Below are positions 13,822 through 61,190 of a DNA stretch of 64,000 nucleotides, piece by piece. This DNA is from a bacterium. Lineage in GTDB: Bacteria; UBA8248. How positions within the stretch are numbered: position 1 is the first letter of the stretch; every line of letters begins with the position of its first letter. Both the position numbers and the translations under genes were made by a program. The notes below the pieces were generated by a model. It saw only the letters and a program-made list of their open reading frames with translations, did not search any database and was not told the DNA's origin. The stretch covers positions 768,001-832,000 of the forward strand of contig OZ241996.1 of assembly GCA_965204535.1 (NCBI GenBank). The letters run 5' to 3'.

Positions 13822-14036
13822 TCAGATAGCCCATCCTGGGGTGGGGGCGTTTTGCAGGGATCAAACACATCGGGAAAAGTGTAATCTTTATGTATGCCCT
13901 CAACAACGGGGTTGATGAAAAAGCCCCCTCCCCAGGGGATAAAGGCAACCCCCCTACCCCCCTTGTCAGGGGGGCAAGAAAAAACAAAAGCACCTCTACC
14001 GGCGGCGGGCGCCGCCTTTTCATACCCCCCTGACAA

Positions 14037-15549
14037 GGGGCTGTTGAAAAACCCTGTTTTGAAGCAGGGGGTATGGCGGCTCACGCGGCTTGGGATAGGA
14101 AGCCCAATCGGCGCGTGAGGCCGCGATATGCGCGCAGACGGCGTCTCCGGGCGGCCCAGGCCCTCCACAGAGCGAATATATCCGCCGCAAAAGCGGCGGC
14201 CAGCCGCTTGAGGTTCACCGCAGTCGCCGTCAGGTAGGCCTGGATCCTCATGTTCGCAAGGCCCCGGCGCACCGCCCGCCCCAGTCCGTGCCGACTCTTC
14301 GCTTCGCCGTGGTAGCCCTCCGAACGCGACATGTGGCGGCGCCACAGCCGGCCCTCCTCCTCCCCCCGGCGCGCGTGCCGCCGGCGCGCGCGCAACAGCG
14401 CCGGATATTCATGCGGAATCAGCACCGTCCTGCTCGTGTGCGACTTGGGCAGACAATCCGACCTCAGCGCGCAGCCCGCGCAATCGCGCGTCCTCGAACC
14501 ATAGTAGCGCCCCCGCTCCGTCTCCTTCCGGGGACGCAGCGTCTTGCCGCCCGGACACTTCACCACCTTGTGCCGCTCGTCGTAGCGGAACAACTGCAGC
14601 GGAACACGGCTCTGGGAAGGCTCCTTCTTCGCCGGTATCAGCGCATCAACACCCCGCCGCTCCAATCCCGCATACACCTTCGAGTACGCATAACCACTAT
14701 CCGCCGTCACCACCGCGGGCGCGCGACCCGTGAGCTCGCAAACCGCATCCAACTGCGGCTCCATCATCTCCCGCTCGTTCAACGTCCCCGCCGTCACCTC
14801 TACGTCGAGGACAACGCCCCGCTCGTCGTCCACCACCGCGTGGTGCTTGTAGCTCGGCTCGAACCCCGCCCGAGCGCTCTTGCGCGCCAGGCGCGCGTCG
14901 GGGTCCGTACGGCTCACCGGACCCGAACCCCCGCCGCCCTTCTTCCCCGCCTCATCCGCCGAGTCGTTCTCCCGCACCACCTTCTCCGCGTGGCGCGCCG
15001 CCAGACTCTCCCAACTCACGTCCGCGCGTATCAAAGACGCGTCCATGTGAACCACTTCCCCCTTCGCCACCTGCGCCTCCAGGCACGCCTGAACCGTGCG
15101 GCGCAATATTTCCTTGAACCGCGCCTCCCCCCACCGCTGGCGAATCCGCGTCAGGCTCGAATGATCCGGCAACTCCTCGTGCAGCTCGTAACCGATGAAC
15201 CACCGGATCGCCAGGTTCACCTGCGCCTCGCGAAGCAGATGCCGGTCGTGCACGTGGCCCAGCAGAAGACCCGCCAGCATCAACCGCACCACCACTTCCG
15301 GGTCGATCCCCGGTCGACCGTTGTCCGCGCAATAGCACTCCGCCACCTCCTCGCGAAGCCAACTCAAATCCAGTACGCGGTTCACCCGGAACAATATGTA
15401 ATCTTCGGGAATCAACTGCTCCAGCGAACCGGCCACGAACAATTCCATCTGCCCGCGCCTCTTGCGGTCCAACATCGGGGAATCTCCCATCTCGGGCGAG
15501 GGGGGATAACTCCATACGATCACAAAACCAGGGGTTTTTCAACAGGCCC
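14037..15549 (-). mobile_element. IS1182-family insertion sequence
   Basis: TIRs GGGGCTGTTGAAAAACCC / GGGTTTTTCAACAGGCCC; imperfect 5-bp flanks GACAA/GTCAA; one transposase. Confidence 0.88.
14081..15475 (-). CDS. IS1182-family DDE transposase
   Basis: GRPGIDP, PDHSSL, MDASLIRA, TDPDA, ADSGY, C-terminal CPGG / CAGCALR..C module. Confidence 0.92.
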   Translation of the reverse strand: MLDRKRRGQMELFVAGSLEQLIPEDYILFRVNRVLDLSWLREEVAECYCADNGRPGIDPEVVVRLMLAGLLLGHVHDRHLLREAQVNLAIRWFIGYELHEELPDHSSLTRIRQRWGEARFKEILRRTVQACLEAQVAKGEVVHMDASLIRADVSWESLAARHAEKVVRENDSADEAGKKGGGGSGPVSRTDPDARLARKSARAGFEPSYKHHAVVDDERGVVLDVEVTAGTLNEREMMEPQLDAVCELTGRAPAVVTADSGYAYSKVYAGLERRGVDALIPAKKEPSQSRVPLQLFRYDERHKVVKCPGGKTLRPRKETERGRYYGSRTRDCAGCALRSDCLPKSHTSRTVLIPHEYPALLRARRRHARRGEEEGRLWRRHMSRSEGYHGEAKSRHGLGRAVRRGLANMRIQAYLTATAVNLKRLAAAFAADIFALWRAWAARRRRLRAYRGLTRRLGFLSQAA

Positions 15550-15791
15550 GTCAAGGGGGGGTAGGGGGGGTTGGTTTTCAAGGCGAGAGCCTGCGCCGCC
15601 GCTACTCAGGATGAGGCGGAGAGGGGTTTTTCGACAAACCCACTACGAAATACGTTCCACCATGCTCTCGTCTCGGGTCCAAACATCGCCCCTCATATTG
15701 ACACCCCATGCGCCATCCCCTAGCTTGGGGCGCTTTTACGGGAACGGCGCGAACTATCTCACCATGATTCATCATCGAAAAGGATTTTGCC

Positions 15792-16644: not shown

Positions 16645-17361
16645 ATGCCGGAATTACAAGCGATCATTTTTGATTTCGACGGCACCATCGCGGACAGCGA
16701 GCCGCTGCATCTGGCGGCGTTCCAGGCGGTGCTCTCGGAAGAGCTGGACCTGGACCTGACCGAAGAGGAATACGCCGAGCGCTACCTCGCCTTCGACGAC
16801 AGGCTCCTGTTCACGCACGTGCTGAACGATCGCGGCGTGGGCGTAGAGCCCGACCGCTTCGAGCAGCTCCTGGAGTTGAAAGAGGCGCGCTACCAGGAAA
16901 TCGCGCTGGCGCCCCAGATTCTCCCCGGTGCCGCCGAGATGATCCGCGCCGCCGCCGCGCACTGGCCCCTCGCCATTGCGAGCGGCGCCCTGGGCCACGA
17001 GGTGCGTCCCGTGCTGGAGCGGGTGGGCTTGATCGATTGTTTCCCGATCATCGTGACGGCGGAGATGGTGAGCCGGGGAAAGCCGGACCCGGAGAGTTTC
17101 CTGACGGCGCTTGCGCGGATAAATGAGGGCCGCGCCGAACTTATTCCGCCGGGGTCGTGCCTCGTGGTGGAGGATTCCGTCGCGGGCGTGCGCTCGGGAG
17201 GTGCCGCCGGGATGCGGACGCTCGCGGTGACGACGAGCTACCCCGCCGATAAGCTGACCGAGGCCGACCGCGTCGTGGATTCACTGGAGGAGACCGTCGA
17301 CCCCGGCGGTCTGGCCGCCTGGTTCGCCGCCCTGCCGTCTGCCTCGTCTCGGAGTGGATAG
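16645..17361 (+). CDS. HAD family phosphatase
   Basis: FDFDGT, KPDP, VEDS..G motifs. Confidence 0.9.
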   Translation: MPELQAIIFDFDGTIADSEPLHLAAFQAVLSEELDLDLTEEEYAERYLAFDDRLLFTHVLNDRGVGVEPDRFEQLLELKEARYQEIALAPQILPGAAEMIRAAAAHWPLAIASGALGHEVRPVLERVGLIDCFPIIVTAEMVSRGKPDPESFLTALARINEGRAELIPPGSCLVVEDSVAGVRSGGAAGMRTLAVTTSYPADKLTEADRVVDSLEETVDPGGLAAWFAALPSASSRSG

Positions 17362-17370
17362 GAGAGGGAT

Positions 17371-17898
17371 ATGCCCATATTAAAGGTCGCGCGCATGGGC
17401 CACCCCGTCCTGCGCCGGAAGGCGAGCGAGGTCGAGCCCGAGTATCTTGGGGGGCCCGAACTTGCGGAAATCATCGAGGACATGTTCGAGACGATGGTGG
17501 AATACGCGGGCGTGGGTCTGGCGGCACCCCAGGTGCACTTGGGGATCAGGCTGTTCGTCATGCAATTTGACCCCGACGATGAGGAAACGCTGCGTTTTGC
17601 CGTGAACCCGAAGCTCACGGCCTTAGGCGACGAGGGCTGGGAGGAATGGGAGGGTTGTCTCAGCATCCCCGACATACATGGCCGCGTGCCGCGCAACGAC
17701 CGGGTGCGTCTGGAAGCGCAGGACCTGGAGGGACGCGTCTATGCCGAGGAGTTGGAGGGTTTCGCCGCGCGCGTCTGCCAGCATGAATACGATCATCTCG
17801 ACGGATTGATGTTTATCGACAGGATGCGCGATTTCACGACGCTTTGTTTCGGGGAGGAATACCGCAGGTATCACGCTCCGCGGCCCAAGGAGGATTGA
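17371..17898 (+). CDS. def: Peptide deformylase
   Basis: GVGLAAPQ, EGCLS, QHEYDHLDG. Confidence 0.97.
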   Translation: MPILKVARMGHPVLRRKASEVEPEYLGGPELAEIIEDMFETMVEYAGVGLAAPQVHLGIRLFVMQFDPDDEETLRFAVNPKLTALGDEGWEEWEGCLSIPDIHGRVPRNDRVRLEAQDLEGRVYAEELEGFAARVCQHEYDHLDGLMFIDRMRDFTTLCFGEEYRRYHAPRPKED

Positions 17899-17989
17899 GG
17901 GGCAGGAGGGGCGGTCTACTCGATCTCTCCCATATGGTCTGGTCGATACGGCGAGTCATAGAATGCAGGGGAAACGGAGGAATCAAAAC

Positions 17990-18568
17990 ATGACAATCAT
18001 CCTGGCTACAGGCACCCGCCGCCGTTCAGGATTTGGCGGCCGTCTCGGTTATTTGGCGCTTCTCCTGCTGTTGGGTCTCCCGGCAGCGGCGTTTGCTGCG
18101 CCGCCCTACCTCAAGACTCCGGCGCCGGTCATCTACCTGGCGGACAATCTGGACGAGCAGGATGGGCTTGGGTGGTGTATCGATACCCGCGGACGAGGAT
18201 TCAGCGATAGGCTGCATACGCACTCGTGCAAGCCGAGGGGCGGCGACGTGCAGTTCCGCTACGATGAGGTGGCGCGGCGGATAGCTTCGGCCACGTTTTC
18301 CGGGAAGTGCGCGGCGCTCCTGGCGCCGGCAGCCGCCGGGGTAACGCTTGGGCTGTTGGATTGCGCGAAGAATGCCACAGGCCAGGTCTTCGATTACGAC
18401 GACGCGGCGATGGAGTTCCGCCCCGGTGCCGACCGGTCGCTTTGCCTCGTCGCGGGCGCCGCAAGCAGGTCGGCCGGGCCGTACATGTCGCGCGACCTCG
18501 CGCTCGCGCCGTGCGCATCCACCGGGGCGAAGTTCAAGCAGTGGCGCATCAAGAAAGCCCGGCCCTGA
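17990..18568 (+). CDS. Secreted ricin-B/beta-trefoil lectin-like protein
   Basis: Signal peptide; paired Cys with CID / C..Q.F / KQW repeats; GGAGG RBS; start 17963 or 17990. Confidence 0.65.
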   Translation: MTIILATGTRRRSGFGGRLGYLALLLLLGLPAAAFAAPPYLKTPAPVIYLADNLDEQDGLGWCIDTRGRGFSDRLHTHSCKPRGGDVQFRYDEVARRIASATFSGKCAALLAPAAAGVTLGLLDCAKNATGQVFDYDDAAMEFRPGADRSLCLVAGAASRSAGPYMSRDLALAPCASTGAKFKQWRIKKARP

Positions 18569-18609
18569 GTGGTTGAGGCGAAAGTCAAAGAGGCCATCCG
18601 TCTGCTTTC

Positions 18610-18639
18610 TTGACAATTCATGATGTTTCATGATAGATT
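18610..18639 (+). promoter_or_regulatory. Sigma70-like promoter with tandem TCATGA palindromes (probable TA operator)
   Basis: TTGACA-18 nt-TAGATT; spacer has TTCATGA twice; directly upstream of the antitoxin. Confidence 0.6.
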
Positions 18640-18662
18640 TCGCCTAAGAATGGAGGTGCCCT

Positions 18663-18893
18663 ATGGCGACCCTAGAGCGAGAGAAGTTCGCAACCCAGGT
18701 GAATTCGGAAATTCTGGCCGCCGTCCGCAGCCTTGCGCGGAGCGAGGGGCGGCAGCTTCAGACCCTGGTGGATGAGGCTCTGGCCGACCTGATCGAGAAG
18801 CGCAAGGGAAGCAGGCCGCGCCCCCACGTCATGGCGGTCTATCAGGCGAGTCACGAGAGATACGCGCCGCTTTACAAAAAACTCGCTGAATGA
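18663..18893 (+). CDS. Putative RHH-type antitoxin
   Basis: 76 aa, beta-helix-helix pattern, ATGA overlap with Doc toxin. Confidence 0.8.
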   Translation: MATLEREKFATQVNSEILAAVRSLARSEGRQLQTLVDEALADLIEKRKGSRPRPHVMAVYQASHERYAPLYKKLAE

Positions 18894-19273
18894 CGGACTA
18901 TCCGACCCTCGTTGAAGTTCTTGCAATCCACCAAGACCAGATTGAGCGATACGGCGGGGCCGAAGGCGTGCGTGATGCGGGTCTGCTCGAAGCCGCACTG
19001 TTTCGGCCACAGACGGGCTACTACGCCGATCTGATTGAGGAGGCTGCCGCGCTCTGGGAGAGTATGGAGAGCAATCACCCGTTCGTCGACGGAAACAAGC
19101 GCACGGCTTTCGCCGTCACCTATACGTTTCTCGCGATCAACGGGGTGTGGATTACGGCGGACGCCGAGAATACCTATAACTTCATCATCGGCCTGCATGA
19201 AACGGATTCGTTCATCTTCGAGCGATTGAGAGATTGGCTCCGCGAGAATGTCCGTCTCGATGCTCCGGAATGA
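18890..19273 (+). CDS. doc: Death-on-curing (Doc/Fic) toxin
   Basis: HPFVDGNKRTA; GVRD.GLLE.AL.RP. Confidence 0.92.
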   Translation: MTDYPTLVEVLAIHQDQIERYGGAEGVRDAGLLEAALFRPQTGYYADLIEEAAALWESMESNHPFVDGNKRTAFAVTYTFLAINGVWITADAENTYNFIIGLHETDSFIFERLRDWLRENVRLDAPE

Positions 19274-19381
19274 TTGCGACCACTCAGGCGGGCCGAGCTT
19301 CTTCGCGGATATGCGGGATTTCACTTCTCTTTGCTTCGGTGAGAAATACCGGGGGTATCACGCCCTGCGCGACCCAAGGAA
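19263..19381 (+). repeat. Degenerate copy of def 3' end (D2)
   Basis: Translates LRNDCDHSGGPSFFADMRDFTSLCFGEKYRGYHA versus Def CQHEYDHLDGLMFIDRMRDFTTLCFGEEYRRYHA. Confidence 0.85.
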
Positions 19382-19626
19382 GAGGCCGAGTAGAGCACCC
19401 GGTCCACGCTCGGGCTCACACGATGTCTAGGCACAGGGCTTGTCCAAACCCGGACTTCACGCCATCACATCAAGGGAAAGGTCCGTACACAATACTAGGG
19501 TGCAAGAGCAGCATGAAGGGGGCGACGCTAATATGGCTATCACAGGAACGGCTCGTCCATAAGATCGCCGTCGCCCACGGGCGCGGATTCAAGACTTGCG
19601 ATCAACTGGTTTATCTTCACGACTTG

Positions 19627-20421
19627 CTACTCGTAAAACATTTTTCTAATGAGGGCAGGTACTCGAACCGAATCAGAGTCATTGCATTTCAAACACTTTT
19701 CCCATGAATTCAAATAGTCTTCAAAAGTTTTGTCGTTTTCAGCATTCCAATAATTGATAAATCCGCAGTCCGCCCAAAGAGAAGGATCACTCCGAAAATG
19801 ATCTAGGAGGGCAAGGGCTACAACTGCATTGCGGCAGCGAAGATAAGGATTGTTTTGCATATCCTCAAGATTTAATGATAACCATCCTGGTAAGTTTTTG
19901 CATTCTGGTGTCAGGTGTTTGTCTGCGAAATCCTCACAGTATTTTGCGTGGCTAGGTGCAAATTCGGCAGCTCCACTGACATTCACAGGCGGGTTGGTTT
20001 TCCAAGTCTCCGATAATCTAGACAAAACGAACAATGACGCCATTTCGCAAAGACTTTCCTCAAACCAAGTATGGCGATGTCCTTTGTTGCGATTGTAGTT
20101 CGTCATTACATGGCACAGTTTGTGCGAGAACTGATAGACGTATTCGCACCAATTCCTATTTTGAGCATTAATACGGATTTGATAAGGACCGGAATCTGAA
20201 AGGACTCTGGATAAATCTTTCCACCAAGAGACTTCAATTCGTTCGTCAGGTAACTTACCGAAAGCACCTACCAGCGCGCAGAAGACAGACTCCAAGACAG
20301 AAGGAATTGCAACATCCAGATACGGTTTCTCGTTTCCTTTATGGGTTGGCCAACTATCCACATCCACTATTAGATATTGCGACATTTTTTGTGCCTCCAA
20401 TTTGTCTGCGTAGTTCGTCAC
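19627..20421 (-). CDS. Low-GC hypothetical protein, zincin-like with degenerate HExxH
   Basis: YQFSHKLCH ... WFEESLCE; markedly AT-richer than flanks. Confidence 0.7.
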   Translation of the reverse strand: MTNYADKLEAQKMSQYLIVDVDSWPTHKGNEKPYLDVAIPSVLESVFCALVGAFGKLPDERIEVSWWKDLSRVLSDSGPYQIRINAQNRNWCEYVYQFSHKLCHVMTNYNRNKGHRHTWFEESLCEMASLFVLSRLSETWKTNPPVNVSGAAEFAPSHAKYCEDFADKHLTPECKNLPGWLSLNLEDMQNNPYLRCRNAVVALALLDHFRSDPSLWADCGFINYWNAENDKTFEDYLNSWEKCLKCNDSDSVRVPALIRKMFYE

Positions 20422-20707
20422 TCACCCCTCCGAAGTGTGCCCTATCGGCAAGCGGCGGCGGTGCCATCAGCGGCCCATGCGCCGTTATCATCCGGGCGAG
20501 ATCATATCATGCCCGCCCGGCCATGTAATGAAATTGACGGCGCGCATAAAAAAATCCCTTTCCGCTTTCGGCATGGAGCATGAAGCCCTGTTTTGCCGAT
20601 TTCCCCCGATGAAGGGGAGCGGAAAAAAATTTTCTCCCCGCCGCGTAGTCGGTTCCCTTTCCCCGCCACCCATCGAGGCCGCGCCGGATTCATCAAGCCC
20701 GCCGCGC

Positions 20708-20748
20708 CGCAGGCATCACGCTCCGCAGCCCTAGGCGGGGTGAGGGGC
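20708..20748 (+). repeat. Short copy of def 3' end (D3)
   Basis: CGCAGGCATCACGCTCCGCAGCCCTAGGCGGGGTGAGGGGC versus def CGCAGGTATCACGCTCCGCGGCCCAAGGAGGATTGAGGGGC. Confidence 0.75.
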
Positions 20749-20767
20749 TTAAGATAGGAGGCGTCAC

Positions 20768-20998
20768 ATGGCGACCCGCCGACGAGAGAAATTCACAACC
20801 CGGGTGGATTCGGAGATTCTGGCCGCCGTCCGCAGTCTTGCGCGCAGTGAGGGGCGGCAGCTTCAAACCCTGGTGGATGAAGCTCTGGCCGACCCGATCG
20901 AGAAGCGCAGGGGGAGCAGGCCGCGCCCCCACGTCATGGCGGTGTATCAGGCGAGCCACGAGAGATACGCACCGCTCTACAATAAACTCGCTGAATGA
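20768..20998 (+). CDS. Second (orphan) copy of the RHH-type antitoxin
   Basis: Near-identical to 18663-18893; followed by only five codons of doc (ATGACGGACTATCCG). Confidence 0.8.
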   Translation: MATRRREKFTTRVDSEILAAVRSLARSEGRQLQTLVDEALADPIEKRRGSRPRPHVMAVYQASHERYAPLYNKLAE

Positions 20999-21009
20999 CG
21001 GACTATCCG

Positions 21010-21096
21010 GTATTTAGACAGGATTCGTGATTTCACACCTTTGCTACGACGAGGAATACCGGGGGCATCGCGCCCTGCGGCCTTAGGCGGGGTGAG
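21010..21096 (+). repeat. Degenerate copy of def 3' end (D4)
   Basis: GACAGGATTCGTGATTTCAC...GAGGAATACCGGGGGCATCGCGCCCTGCGGCC matches def 17818-17886. Confidence 0.8.
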
Positions 21097-21286
21097 TCGC
21101 GCGGACCTGCTTCCCGCGGTTCCGTTCCTTTAACGCAGACTCATCCGCCGCATCCCCTCCGGGCGCGAATTCCAGTTCCACGCAGCAGGCGTTGCAGATG
21201 GGGCCGGTCCCGTAGGTGCCCTCATCGAAGACGTGTCCCTGAAACCGGTGGCGGCAGTTCGGGCAAATCCAGATGTATTGGCTCAT
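21083..21286 (-). CDS. Small Zn-ribbon hypothetical protein
   Basis: CPNC...CNAC; GAGGAG RBS before ATG. Confidence 0.6.
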   Translation of the reverse strand: MSQYIWICPNCRHRFQGHVFDEGTYGTGPICNACCVELEFAPGGDAADESALKERNRGKQVRATHPA

Positions 21287-21470
21287 GCCGGTCTCCTCAG
21301 GCGGCTTTGCCTTCCGAGCGAGATGTACCGCCCTCTTATATTCTCAATATAGGTTGCAAGGCGAAGATTTCGCCACAGAAAAAGCGCTGATTGTTTTCGG
21401 CGGGATTTCAGGATGGGTGGAGGGGCGATACGGGCGGGTTTGCGTGGGTCACGAATAATGCAAGATATAG

Positions 21471-21557
21471 TGGTGCCCAAGGCCGGACTCGAACCGACAC
21501 GGGGTTGCCCCCACTAGCCCCTCAAGCTAGCGTGTCTACCAATTCCACCACTTGGGC
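21471..21557 (-). tRNA. tRNA-Leu(GAG)
   Basis: GCCCAAG/CTTGGGC acceptor stem, CTAGC-TTGAGGG-GCTAG anticodon arm, long variable arm, GGTTCGAGTCC, encoded CCA. Confidence 0.97.
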
Positions 21558-21665
21558 ATGAAGCCTGAGAATTTTCATCCGGGGCAACGCTCAGGCCAAG
21601 AGGCTATATAGCGTCGCGCGCGCCGCGCTGTCAACGCCTCCCGTTCCAGACAATACGTGTTACCG

Positions 21666-58845: not shown

Positions 58846-60024
58846 ATGCCCAAAAGAAGCAATATCAAGCTTACCAAACGAGTCGTCGACGCGCTATCCG
58901 TCGAGAAGGAAGACGCCGTCTTCTGGGACCGGGAGCTGGCGGGCTTTGGGGTGCGGGTCTACGCCACGGGCCGGAAGGTCTACGTGGTGCAATCGAGAGG
59001 GCCGTGGGGTCCCAAACGCGTGACGTTGGGCAAACACGGCGAGATGTCCACTGATGAGGCGAGGAAACAGGCCGCACTCGTCATCGACCGCATCAAGCGG
59101 GGCGAGGAGCCAGAGCCCAGGCCGCCCGAGGCCACGCCCACGGTGGCGGGCCTTTGCGAGCGCTTCATGCGCGACCATGCCGAAACGCACTGCAAGCCCG
59201 GCACCGCCAGGACGTACCGCTCCTATATCGGGAACCACATCCTTCCGGCGCTGGGCAGGAAGGCGGTGGCCCAAGTCGGCCGGGCGGAGGTATCGGCGTT
59301 TCATCACGGCCTGCGCGCGACGCCCGGCGCGGCCAACGCGGTCCTGGGACTGCTCTCCAGCATGTTCAAGATGGCCGAGGCGTGGGGCCTGGTTCCTCCC
59401 GGGAGCAACCCGTGCCGGGCGGTGCGCCGCTACCGGACGCGCAAGTGCGAGCGGTTCCTGACACAGGATGAATTCCGCCGCCTCGGACGTGCGCTCCGTG
59501 ACCTGGAGACGGAGGGGAAGGCATGGCCGTCCGCGGTGGCGGCGATCAGGCTCCTGGCGCTGACCGGTTGCAGGCGGAGCGAGATACTGGACTTGCACTG
59601 GGACGACGTGGACCGCACGGCGGGGGAGCTCAGGCTCAGGGACGCCAAGGCGGGCCCGCGCATGGTGCCCCTGACCAAACCCGTATTGAGAGTGCTGGAG
59701 GGGATTCCCCGCTCGCCGGACAATCCCTGGGTGTTTCCCGCAAGGCACGGGGAGGGCCGCCTGACGGACCTCCACCACTACTGGGAGGCCGTGAGGGAGC
59801 GGGCGGGGCTTCATGACGTCCGCATTCACGACCTCCGGCATTCGTACGCCAGCCGGGCGCTCGCGCTCGGCGAGAGTCTCTCGGCGATCGGCAGGCTGCT
59901 CGGCCACCGTCACGTGGTGAGCACGGCGCGCTACGCGCACCTGATGCGCGATGCCGAAAAGGCGGCGGCCGCCCGTGTGGGCGAGAGCATCGGCGTCCAC
60001 GTCACGAACGGGAGGGTCGAGTGA
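58846..60024 (+). CDS. Tyrosine recombinase with arm-binding domain (Int1)
   Basis: FWD..L.GFGVRV arm domain; TGCRRSE, DAK, HDLRH, LLGH, TARY. Confidence 0.95.
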   Translation: MPKRSNIKLTKRVVDALSVEKEDAVFWDRELAGFGVRVYATGRKVYVVQSRGPWGPKRVTLGKHGEMSTDEARKQAALVIDRIKRGEEPEPRPPEATPTVAGLCERFMRDHAETHCKPGTARTYRSYIGNHILPALGRKAVAQVGRAEVSAFHHGLRATPGAANAVLGLLSSMFKMAEAWGLVPPGSNPCRAVRRYRTRKCERFLTQDEFRRLGRALRDLETEGKAWPSAVAAIRLLALTGCRRSEILDLHWDDVDRTAGELRLRDAKAGPRMVPLTKPVLRVLEGIPRSPDNPWVFPARHGEGRLTDLHHYWEAVRERAGLHDVRIHDLRHSYASRALALGESLSAIGRLLGHRHVVSTARYAHLMRDAEKAAAARVGESIGVHVTNGRVE

Positions 60025-61190
60025 TGACGAAGCCCGCGATGAAAACGCTCTCGAACCGGCTGGTCGCGAAACTCACTGTCGAGAAGGACACGGTCTTCTG
60101 GGACCGGGATCTCACCGGCTTCGGTGTCAGAATCTATCCCACCGGCTCAAAAGTCTACATCGCCCAGGCGCGCGGACCCGAAGGACCGAAACGGGTGGCG
60201 GTGGGCCGCCACGGCGTGATCCACGCCGATCAGGCGCGCAAGCGCGCGGCGCTCGTCATCGCGCGCATCAAGGCGGGCGAGGAGGCGGTTCCCGAACCGA
60301 GCAAGCCCGCAGGCGGTCCCACGGTGGCAGAGCTCGCGAAGCGCTATCTCACCGAATACGTCTCCGTGCGCTGTAAGCCGCGCACCGTGAAGACGCTCCA
60401 CTCCGTGGTTTTGAGGCACATCGTCCCGGCGCTGGGAAAGCTGCCGCTCACGGCGGTCGGGCGCGCCCACGTCTTGGGGCTGCATCAAAGCCTCCATGAG
60501 ACGCCCGCTATCGCCAACCAGGCTGTCCGCACGCTGTCCGCGATGTACCGCTTGGCAGAGGAGTGGGGCATGGTTCCAGAGAGGACGAACCCGTGTCGTG
60601 CCATCGCCGAATATCCGGTCGGCCGCCGGGAACGGTTCCTCACCGAGGCGGAATTCAACCGCCTGGGACGCGCGCTCGACCGGATCGAGACGGAGGGCGG
60701 CGCGTCGGCGAGCGCGGTGGCGGCGATCAGGCTCCTGATCCTGACCGGGTGCCGGAAGTCGGAGATCCTCACGCTGCGCTGGGAGGAGGTGGCGCTCGAT
60801 CAAGCGGAGTTCAGGCTCTCAGACTCCAAGACGGGCGCGCGGGTCGTTTCGCTCTCAGGGCCCGCGGTCAAACTCCTCGCGGGACTGCCGCGCCTGCCTG
60901 GGGTCCCCTGGGTGCTCCCCGGCAGGAAGCCGGGTACGCACCTCCGGAAGCTCGATGACGCCTGGCAGGCCGTCCGCTCTCGCGCGGGACTTCACGACGT
61001 GCGCTTGCACGATCTCCGTCATTCGTTCGCCTCGCGCGCCCTGGCGCTGGGCGAGGGACTCACCGTGATAGGCAAGCTCCTGGGCCACGCACGGATCGAG
61101 ACCACCTCGCGCTACGCGCATCTCGCGCGCGATTCGGTGCACGAGTCCGCCGAGCGGGTCGCCGCGAGCATCGCCGAAGACCTGCTGTAG
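60021..61190 (+). CDS. Tyrosine recombinase with arm-binding domain (Int2)
   Basis: Paralogue of Int1 overlapping its stop; TGCRKSE, DSK, HDLRH, LLGH, TSRY. Confidence 0.95.
   Translation: MMTKPAMKTLSNRLVAKLTVEKDTVFWDRDLTGFGVRIYPTGSKVYIAQARGPEGPKRVAVGRHGVIHADQARKRAALVIARIKAGEEAVPEPSKPAGGPTVAELAKRYLTEYVSVRCKPRTVKTLHSVVLRHIVPALGKLPLTAVGRAHVLGLHQSLHETPAIANQAVRTLSAMYRLAEEWGMVPERTNPCRAIAEYPVGRRERFLTEAEFNRLGRALDRIETEGGASASAVAAIRLLILTGCRKSEILTLRWEEVALDQAEFRLSDSKTGARVVSLSGPAVKLLAGLPRLPGVPWVLPGRKPGTHLRKLDDAWQAVRSRAGLHDVRLHDLRHSFASRALALGEGLTVIGKLLGHARIETTSRYAHLARDSVHESAERVAASIAEDLL

What the first reader, a model, noticed from the sequence alone, without database searches (positions are those of the whole stretch)
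17780..21096. Integrase-free cassette array punctuated by four copies of the def 3' end
Seen: order is def end (D1), lectin-like gene, antitoxin-doc, D2 (19263-19381), low-GC zincin-like gene, D3 (20708-20748), antitoxin-doc stub, D4 (21010-21096). D2 still translates to a decayed Def C-terminus back to the HExxH region. D3 and D4 also share TAGGCGGGGTGAG, the end of the convergent Zn-ribbon gene. No recombinase is in the array. Established: elements integrating into a gene's 3' end duplicate that end. Inference: repeated integration at an essential protein-coding gene, each event replacing the Def tail and leaving an integron-like array of TA and cargo cassettes, driven by a distant integrase or by homologous recombination.
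Basis: partly seen in the sequence, partly recalled or inferred. Interest (0 to 1): 0.75.

Follow-up and report, generated by a model that had tools for sequence, protein, structure and literature searches.

The report
Displaced deformylase tails at recombination hotspot
A sponge-associated bacterium carries three leftover copies of the end of a spare peptide deformylase gene among toxin-antitoxin and other imported genes, likely left by the cell's own recombination rather than by an integrase; similar leftovers follow about 25 other genes in this genome and occur at a similar rate in samples of more distant genomes, so this is an ordinary kind of scar.

Summary
The repeats are real: D2-D4 are decayed copies of the def 3' end, and two runs hold one identical contig across the array. 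The def-to-tRNA-Leu interval varies widely: 14 of 22 genus relatives have at least one extra tail, 6 have none, 2 are unresolved. No relative has a def-linked integrase; there is no attC fold and no IntI. This def is a second paralogue; the fmt-linked copy lies elsewhere. Long tails share one junction, where the doc stop codon overlaps def by ATGA. D2 is a chimera ending in another lineage's tail plus a zincin segment that is 99-100% identical between species. The pattern is genome-wide: 26 genes have a 3' end copied downstream against 3 upstream. Control genomes give 1-4 per 400 kb against 2.1 here. Best reading: one-sided homologous recombination displaces the resident tail, and later crossovers in old tails lengthen the array. 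This is a known kind (rhs/T6SS displacement arrays), and this scan noted it before on other DNA.

The parts
17371..17898 (+). Peptide deformylase gene, second paralogue (the fmt-adjacent copy is on contig C2); anchor of the array
   Evidence: PF01327 and TIGR00079; second def C2:1363848-1364297 next to fmt C2:1364442
17783..17898 (+). D1: live def tail, from the ATGA in the His-Glu codons of HExxH to the stop
   Evidence: alignment
17990..18568 (+). Ricin-B lectin domain gene (start uncertain, 17963 possible); no tail copy behind it
   Evidence: PF00652 E 2e-8; absent in G004, G006, G008, G022
18607..18893 (+). Promoter-like site and RHH-like antitoxin copy 1 (ORF 18663-18893)
   Evidence: sigma-70-like site 18610-18639 (at chance count for the region); weak PF20605; 74% DNA identity to a plasmid TA module over 18607-19248
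18890..19273 (+). Doc-family toxin of a bacterial type II toxin-antitoxin pair; its stop codon overlaps the first bases of D2
   Evidence: PF02661, TIGR01550; junction
19270..19393 (+). D2: chimeric def tail, decayed on the left, with the right end of the G004/G008 copy
   Evidence: 28/47 left, 44/54 middle, 36/37 right against G004/G008 D
19394..20706 (.). Segment X: low-GC zincin-like gene (19627-20385, minus) with non-coding flanks nearly identical between species
   Evidence: flanks 99-100% in six relatives whose HAD gene is 87-94% identical; only at this locus in 9 of 50 class genomes; Atlas neighbours 0.97-0.98, one named putative M64 metallopeptidase
20707..20748 (+). D3: short def tail (last 36 nt plus 5), also in G002
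20747..21009 (+). Antitoxin copy 2 (89% to copy 1, no promoter-like site found) and 15-nt doc stub
21010..21096 (+). D4: def tail shortened on the left by the doc deletion; its minus strand supplies the last codons and stop of the Zn-ribbon ORF
21083..21286 (-). Conserved small Zn-ribbon ORF convergent with def
   Evidence: open reading frame in 11 genomes listed, besides G000; weak zinc-finger Pfam hits
21471..21557 (-). tRNA-Leu(GAG); right-hand conserved flank; separately targeted by an integrase island in G002

Best explanation
The three extra def ends are likely scars of integrase-free recombination: DNA from a related species likely paired with one conserved flank, was joined at its other end through a few matching bases inside the resident gene end, and so left that end duplicated behind the imported genes. 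Shown: D2-D4 are def tails; all nine long copies start at one junction, doc stop codon over def ATGA; the interval differs among relatives; D2 is a chimera; segment X moved recently between species; the same layout follows many other genes. Inferred history: (1) def and the Zn-ribbon gene overlapped end to end; (2) a plasmid-type antitoxin-doc module entered behind def and pushed about 116 nt of tail downstream, which kept both overlapping genes intact; (3) X entered behind a def end in another lineage, leaving the short D3; (4) doc was deleted in some lineages between short GACGG matches, leaving an orphan antitoxin and the short D4 form; (5) a crossover between an old tail (D2) and a donor's tail added X-D3-antitoxin-D4 behind the resident module. 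The vehicle is probably natural transformation (comEC and dprA are present; uptake untested). Whether the first junction forms by homology-facilitated illegitimate recombination or by re-circularisation plus a single crossover cannot be told from sequence.
For: Empty and filled states in relatives. One shared junction with short homology. D2 36/37 identical on the right but 28/47 on the left to G004/G008 D. X flanks 99-100% against 87-94% for HAD. In L366 the repeat is an 832-nt, 82%-identical block (tail end, Zn-ribbon gene, 3' part of a different gene), so X and a tail arrived with no def tail at X's left edge. Antitoxin copies differ by 11%, within the between-species range 86-98%. Genome-wide: 40 genes with a non-genic 3'-end copy downstream against 5 upstream, mid-gene control 9 and 3; independent scan 26 against 3, p 1.5e-5. 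In 24 anchors kept, left edges run from -20 to -250, 6 have two or more copies with different left edges, and two cargo genes became anchors themselves. At the AbiE and YafQ loci the copy plus what follows matches the empty site of relatives. At thiolase, G014 holds a 74%-identical MNT-HepT pair with a longer repeat, -152 against -104. comEC and dprA present. Experimental precedent: in E. coli conjugation 56 of 60 clones had a duplication of the homologous end, 109-950 bp in 14 sequenced (PMC3240628, passages).
Against: No event was observed; the order of steps is reconstructed. Textbook HFIR mostly deletes resident DNA and is rare (PMC3240628, PMC5361080 passages). At thiolase the live gene keeps the empty-site downstream sequence and the copy looks foreign, the opposite polarity. 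At def the tails are too decayed to show that the live tail came from a donor. The genome has 39 tyrosine-recombinase matches over cut-off, so action in trans is not excluded. Three junctions (Doc, AbiEii, the protein behind methylmalonyl-CoA mutase) lie within 4 nt of the cargo stop codon, which random joining does not predict without later trimming. Left edges can be shifted by decay, and the right-edge clustering (24 of 31 within -10..+22 of the stop) is partly built into the search. The species tree is poorly resolved (4 of 19 branches starred).
Confidence: 0.72

Rival explanations
1. Site-specific accretion: integrase-bearing elements targeted the def 3' end in tandem and decayed into cis-mobilizable elements (CIMEs), as at fda, rpsI and rpmG of Streptococcus salivarius; the tails are att sites.
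For: Tandem arrays with integrase-free CIMEs at 3' ends of protein genes are documented (PMC7563491, passages). The long tails start in the conserved HExxH codons. Many tyrosine recombinases exist in the genome.
Against: No integrase hit among the ORFs scanned between def and tRNA in relatives except G002, whose integrase abuts tRNA-Leu with a 19-nt tRNA-end repeat. No separate def-tail copy in 19 genomes of other genera of the family, none in viral contigs (one exact pattern) or plasmids. Left edges differ (-115, -36). At least 24 unrelated anchors, including cargo genes, would each need an integrase. In at most 5 of 66 Doc loci from other taxa does a gene-end repeat bracket the toxin.
Confidence: 0.12
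2. Internal tandem duplication: the antitoxin-doc-tail unit duplicated inside one chromosome by microhomology, X inserted between, and the copies decayed; no foreign anchor DNA was needed.
For: The unit antitoxin-(doc)-tail occurs twice; comM shows tail plus next gene duplicated.
Against: It does not explain the first tail, since relatives have empty sites with no cargo. X flanks are 99-100% identical across species while the duplicated units differ by 6-18%. D2's right end belongs to another lineage.
Confidence: 0.1
3. A dedicated, undescribed capture system moves gene-sized units and joins them at the cargo stop codon into gene ends.
For: Cargo stops within 4 nt of the tail's left edge at three loci; strong 3'-downstream polarity.
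Against: Most junctions lie tens to hundreds of bases from a stop; no shared motif seen at the 31 junctions by eye; the rate is similar in other families; no candidate enzyme is linked.
Confidence: 0.05
4. Assembly artefact.
For: Metagenome-assembled genome; the two full holders may be the source sample.
Against: Copies are 77-89% identical, not collapsed repeats; one contig with 0 differences spans the array in two runs; G002, G011 and G012 have nearly the same layout.
Confidence: 0.01

Closest known systems
C-terminal displacement at rhs loci (PMC2935791, passages) and sequential displacement of T6SS effector-immunity modules in Vibrio cholerae (PMC5361080, passages)
   Same: Intact gene followed by repeats of its own 3' part of varying length, interleaved with low-GC imported genes and orphan protective genes; proposed to form by anchored recombination without an integrase.
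   Different: Here the anchor is a metabolic gene whose tail is replaced by an equivalent tail, so its product barely changes; cargo lies after the stop codon; the pattern is spread over many unrelated genes rather than one toxin family.
Homology-facilitated illegitimate recombination, and single-crossover insertion of re-circularised linear DNA (PMC3240628, passages)
   Same: One homologous end, a short or absent homology at the other joint; the circle route duplicates part of the homologous end.
   Different: HFIR as described usually deletes about as much as it inserts; repeats here (20-250 nt) are shorter than most of the 109-950 bp seen in E. coli; nothing was tested experimentally here.
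Integrase-free HGT hotspots with recombination at flanking core genes (PMC5635113, passages)
   Same: High turnover between conserved flanks, next to a tRNA, no integrase; X spreads between species only at this locus.
   Different: That model is a double crossover that replaces content and leaves no duplicated gene end; the passages read do not describe tail scars.
CIME / ICE tandem accretion at 3' ends of fda, rpsI, rpmG (PMC7563491, passages)
   Same: Tandem integrase-free units with cargo behind a protein-coding gene's 3' end.
   Different: CIMEs derive from and sit with ICEs or IMEs that carry the cognate integrase and share att sites; none was found for def.
Integrons / CALIN cassette arrays (defining features from my own knowledge)
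   Same: Small cassettes with TA pairs separated by related repeats.
   Different: Repeats are coding tails with no hairpin, no attC motif, no IntI.

Membership tests
Terminal-displacement array (rhs/T6SS type) | Intact upstream gene with downstream partial copies of its own 3' end, of varying length | tested here: met
   D2 about 120 nt, D3 42 nt, D4 about 85 nt
Terminal-displacement array (rhs/T6SS type) | Content varies among relatives, with empty and filled states | tested here: met
   14 of 22 with tails, 6 without, 2 unresolved
Terminal-displacement array (rhs/T6SS type) | Live tail comes from the donor and the downstream copy is the former resident end | tested here: inconclusive
   Supported at AbiE (copy closer to relatives' tails in 10 of 10) and by downstream sequence at YafQ; reversed at thiolase; too decayed at def
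Terminal-displacement array (rhs/T6SS type) | Anchor is a polymorphic toxin whose C-terminal domain changes | tested here: not met
   Anchor is a deformylase with near-constant tail; so it works like, but is not, an rhs/T6SS locus
HFIR / single-crossover insertion | One homologous anchor and a short-homology joint at the other end | tested here: met
   ATGA shared by the doc stop and def; short matches at AbiE and MCM joints
HFIR / single-crossover insertion | RecA dependence and DNA uptake | not testable with these tools
   comEC and dprA present but these ring in 10 of 14 control genomes too
CIME / site-specific accretion | Cognate integrase-bearing element at the same gene in relatives | tested here: not met
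   G002's integrase is tied to tRNA-Leu
CIME / site-specific accretion | One fixed crossover core shared by all att copies | tested here: inconclusive
   Left edges -115 and -36 at def, and differ at five other multi-copy loci, but decay can move edges
Integron / CALIN | Integron integrase | tested here: not met
   0 of 33 TIGR02249 matches over cut-off (genome 95.7% complete)
Integron / CALIN | attC sites: inverse core and core boxes on a folded bottom strand | tested here: not met
   No motif pair in 17300-21600; fold z-scores 0.00, 0.84, 0.14, -0.07; no Rfam match but the tRNA

The most novel reading that the evidence does not exclude
Integrase-free insertion with duplication of a gene's last 20-250 bases is a general, countable route of bacterial gene gain (about five scars per megabase), and its joint is steered to the stop codon of the last imported gene, so that whole toxin-antitoxin units are captured behind almost any gene and old tails then seed further accretion.
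Probability: 0.15. Interest if true: 0.7.

Novelty: new member of a known kind. Interest (0 to 1): 0.3.

Why it matters
It is a well-resolved example of how a variable region can grow without any mobile-element enzyme: an old gene tail becomes the crossover site for the next import, and a convergent overlapping gene gives the last tail a reason to persist. It also warns that a duplicated gene 3' end is not by itself evidence of an att site. The census (about 2 per 400 kb here and in controls) suggests the scar is common background, which makes the rate and joint rules measurable across genomes, but lowers the surprise of this locus.

Tried and rejected
Def-specific element: rejected, the pattern is genome-wide. 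Lineage-specific mechanism: rejected, controls give 2 (G032), 2 (G028), 1 (G007), 4 (G022) per 400 kb and 5 in 698 kb of Doc neighbourhoods against 23 in 11 x 400 kb of G000 (small samples, control hits not curated, some G022 hits belong to a repeat family). The TA module as a gene-end-targeting element: at most 5 of 66 loci bracketed, 14 of 80 skipped for short flanks. attP search: exact 23-mer pattern found 0 in viral contigs and 2 chromosomal def loci in metagenome contigs; plasmids matched only the TA module. Serine recombinase PF07508: none. D-D excision joints: none in X1 and X2, but contigs drop rare variants; joints in X3 and X4 (17803 to 19311, 18896 to 21016) come from mixed related strains at 85% likeness and are not evidence of excision. 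I first read G006, G020 and L366 as three independent non-tail junctions of X; one search showed one junction with later deletions. Excess of convergent neighbours behind the last tail: 10 of 22 against 29% background, p 0.08, not established. Cargo at the same sites without any tail copy exists (6 of the fetched AbiE-site and 5 of the fetched YafQ-site relatives), so not every insertion leaves or keeps a scar. The primary HFIR papers PMC122324 and PMC122325 were not held. Literature: ten searches found no paper on def as an integration target or on a genome-wide census of such tails; the library lacks most subscription papers and no supplements were read.
Full report
Observation. The array is as described. 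def (17371-17898) is followed by a ricin-B lectin gene, an RHH-like antitoxin and a Doc toxin, tail copy D2 (19270-19393), a low-GC zincin-like gene, D3 (20707-20748), a second antitoxin with a 15-nt doc stub, D4 (21010-21096), a convergent Zn-ribbon ORF and tRNA-Leu. The tail copies are 77-86% identical to the def end and occur nowhere else in the 4.56-Mb genome; D3 scores 36 of 42 against a shuffle maximum of 23. Two runs each hold a single contig over 17200-21539 with no difference and flat depth; they may be the source sample. Related sequence lies mostly in runs labelled sponge metagenome (X3 was laid). The organism's name was not determined.

The genome has a second def directly upstream of fmt, so the window's gene is not shown to be essential. 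The 13-mer shared by D3 and D4 is a decayed def tail. It also ends the Zn-ribbon ORF because the two genes overlap end to end in G009, which has no insertion; in tail-bearing genomes the Zn-ribbon ORF ends inside the last tail. That likely explains why the last copy persists (inference).

Relatives. Of 22 genus genomes, 14 have at least one extra tail, 6 have none (G001, G007, G009, G010, G015, G019) and 2 are unresolved (G017, G018). Layouts include def-tRNA, def-Zn ribbon, def-lectin-D, def-AT-doc-D, def-X-AT-D and def-lectin-AT-doc-D-X-AT-D. All nine long copies begin where the doc stop codon overlaps the ATGA of the def His-Glu codons, even in G013 where the antitoxin and most of doc are gone, so they descend from one founding joint. 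The short copies follow a doc deletion between the doc start and a GACGG in the tail. The antitoxin-doc module is 74% identical, from promoter to near the stop, to a TA module of an alphaproteobacterial plasmid. In Doc loci of other taxa at most 5 of 66 are bracketed by a gene-end repeat, so the module is not itself a gene-end-targeting element.

Growth by crossover in old tails. Segment X (19394-20706) has non-coding flanks 99-100% identical in six relatives whose HAD gene is 87-94% identical, and it occurs only at this locus, in 9 of 50 class genomes searched. D2 of G000, G011 and G012 matches the G004/G008 copy at 36-37 of 37 bases on the right but 27-29 of 47 on the left: a crossover between a decayed resident tail and a donor tail followed by X. 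In L366, G020 and G006, X arrived without a tail at its left edge; in L366 the duplicated block is 832 nt at 82% identity and includes the 3' part of a different gene on the tRNA side. These three share one junction with later deletions.

No integrase. Among ORFs scanned from the extra DNA of relatives (38 of 47 called) the only integrase is in G002, adjacent to tRNA-Leu, with a 19-nt tRNA-end repeat 35 kb away. No separate def-tail copy was found in 19 genomes of other genera of the family, viral contigs or plasmids. G000 has 42 tyrosine-recombinase matches, 39 over cut-off, the nearest about 21 kb before and 38 kb after the array, no IntI over cut-off and no PF07508. The tails do not fold and carry no attC motif.

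Genome-wide context. From 3618 crude gene calls (those of 300 nt or more were queried), 40 genes have a non-genic same-strand copy of their last 150 nt within 10 kb downstream and 5 upstream; mid-gene pieces give 9 and 3; starts give 28 and 26 with unrefined starts. An independent self-repeat scan with refined starts gave 3' ends 26 downstream against 3 upstream (p 1.5e-5), 5' ends 9 upstream against 2 downstream (p 0.065), internal pieces 12 and 8. Of the 40, I set aside 9 tandem paralogues or repeats, and fetched 30 genes in 27 loci besides def. Pfam on 149 of 153 ORFs found tyrosine recombinases in 3 loci and Mutator transposases in 2. I then dropped 7 of the 30 (three recombinase loci, one transposase anchor, three small or doubtful anchors) and kept 24 anchors with def. 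They include thiolase (MNT-HepT), two MFS genes (AbiE; RelB-YafQ), comM, methylmalonyl-CoA mutase, ZnuA, a pyruvate-dehydrogenase-like gene and arginase. Six have two or more copies with different left edges, and two cargo genes (asparaginase, NYN) have tails of their own. Three loci were compared across the genus: all have empty relatives. At AbiE the copy is closer than the live tail to relatives' tails in 10 of 10 comparisons and continues into the empty-site sequence; YafQ agrees in its downstream sequence; thiolase shows the reverse. Many relatives carry other cargo at these sites with no tail.

Controls. With one pipeline, G000 gives 23 cases in 11 x 400 kb (0-5 per set), G032 and G028 (same class, another family) 2 each, G007 1, G022 4, and Doc neighbourhoods from many phyla 5 in 698 kb. 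The samples are small and uncurated, but they give no sign that this lineage is special.

Mechanism. I favour one-sided homologous recombination (0.72): donor DNA pairs at one conserved flank, the other end joins by a few matching bases inside the resident gene end, and the duplicated end later serves as a crossover site. comEC and dprA are present; uptake and RecA dependence are untested. A laboratory precedent exists: in E. coli conjugation 56 of 60 clones carried a duplication of the homologous end, ascribed to re-circularisation and a single crossover (PMC3240628, passages). Against: classical HFIR mostly deletes; thiolase has reversed polarity; three joints sit within 4 nt of the cargo stop, which needs trimming or an unknown rule. 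Site-specific accretion of CIMEs (PMC7563491, passages) gets 0.12, internal duplication 0.10, a dedicated capture system 0.05.

Comparison and novelty. It works like C-terminal displacement at rhs loci (PMC2935791, passages) and V. cholerae T6SS arrays (PMC5361080, passages), inside an integrase-free hotspot of the kind in PMC5635113 (passages); it is not an rhs locus, a CIME array or an integron by the tests above. Ten literature searches found no report on def or a genome-wide census, within a library lacking most subscription papers. Earlier notes of this scan describe the same scar in other genomes, one at genome scale; they are unchecked and not counted as support. Verdict: real, well resolved, new member of a known kind; interest 0.3.

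Noticed in passing
G002:C1:588480-623926 (L071, L072, L052): About 35-kb island at the tRNA-Leu 3' end with a tyrosine integrase next to the tRNA, a 19-nt tRNA-end repeat, OLD-like TOPRIM/AAA plus UvrD pair, RelE-like Gp49 with HTH and a Mutator transposase.
   Followed up: partly
L062:4832-9034, L067:1365-5525, L059:2471-6163: Single ORFs of 1230-1400 aa fill the gap next to tRNA-Leu in G012, G019 and G009; no Pfam hit, two with a partial sacsin-like ATP-binding match; possibly defence genes.
   Followed up: partly
L095 (G000:C2:837087-841820): comM is followed by a luciferase-like monooxygenase, a comM tail and a second monooxygenase copy; tail plus neighbour were added rather than swapped.
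   Followed up: partly
L091 (G000:C2:197747-207893): A 7-kb cluster with two CobW proteins, a flavin oxidoreductase and a WD40 protein sits between znuA and a copy of its last 77 nt.
   Followed up: partly
L089 (G000:C1:1459109-1462202): A second ricin-B lectin gene lies between a small ORF with a weak integrase fragment and a 31-nt copy of its end.
   Followed up: no
L056, L058, L068, L070 (right flank of X, after window 20484): About 370 nt are inserted in X's right flank in G006, G008, G020 and G022 with a roughly 10-nt target repeat, probably a small non-autonomous element.
   Followed up: no
L102:2700-3000 (G000:C2, about 2574340-2574640): A 170-300-nt intergenic repeat with many copies across genus genomes; a related-looking stem-loop family also shows at L090.
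   Followed up: no
window 14023-15563: Insertion sequence with a 480-aa DDE transposase (DUF772) and 32-nt terminal inverted repeats, 2 kb before def.
   Followed up: no
window 59455-61127 (G000:C1:827455-829127): Pair of adjacent tyrosine recombinase domains, one of several such pairs in the genome.
   Followed up: no
G000 genome-wide: Mirror class: 9 genes have a copy of their 5' end upstream against 2 downstream; three dprA-like matches over cut-off, two with identical scores.
   Followed up: partly
L261:1332-7034: A 1900-aa fused methyltransferase and BPTD_3080-family restriction protein fills the thiolase site in G015, without a tail copy.
   Followed up: partly
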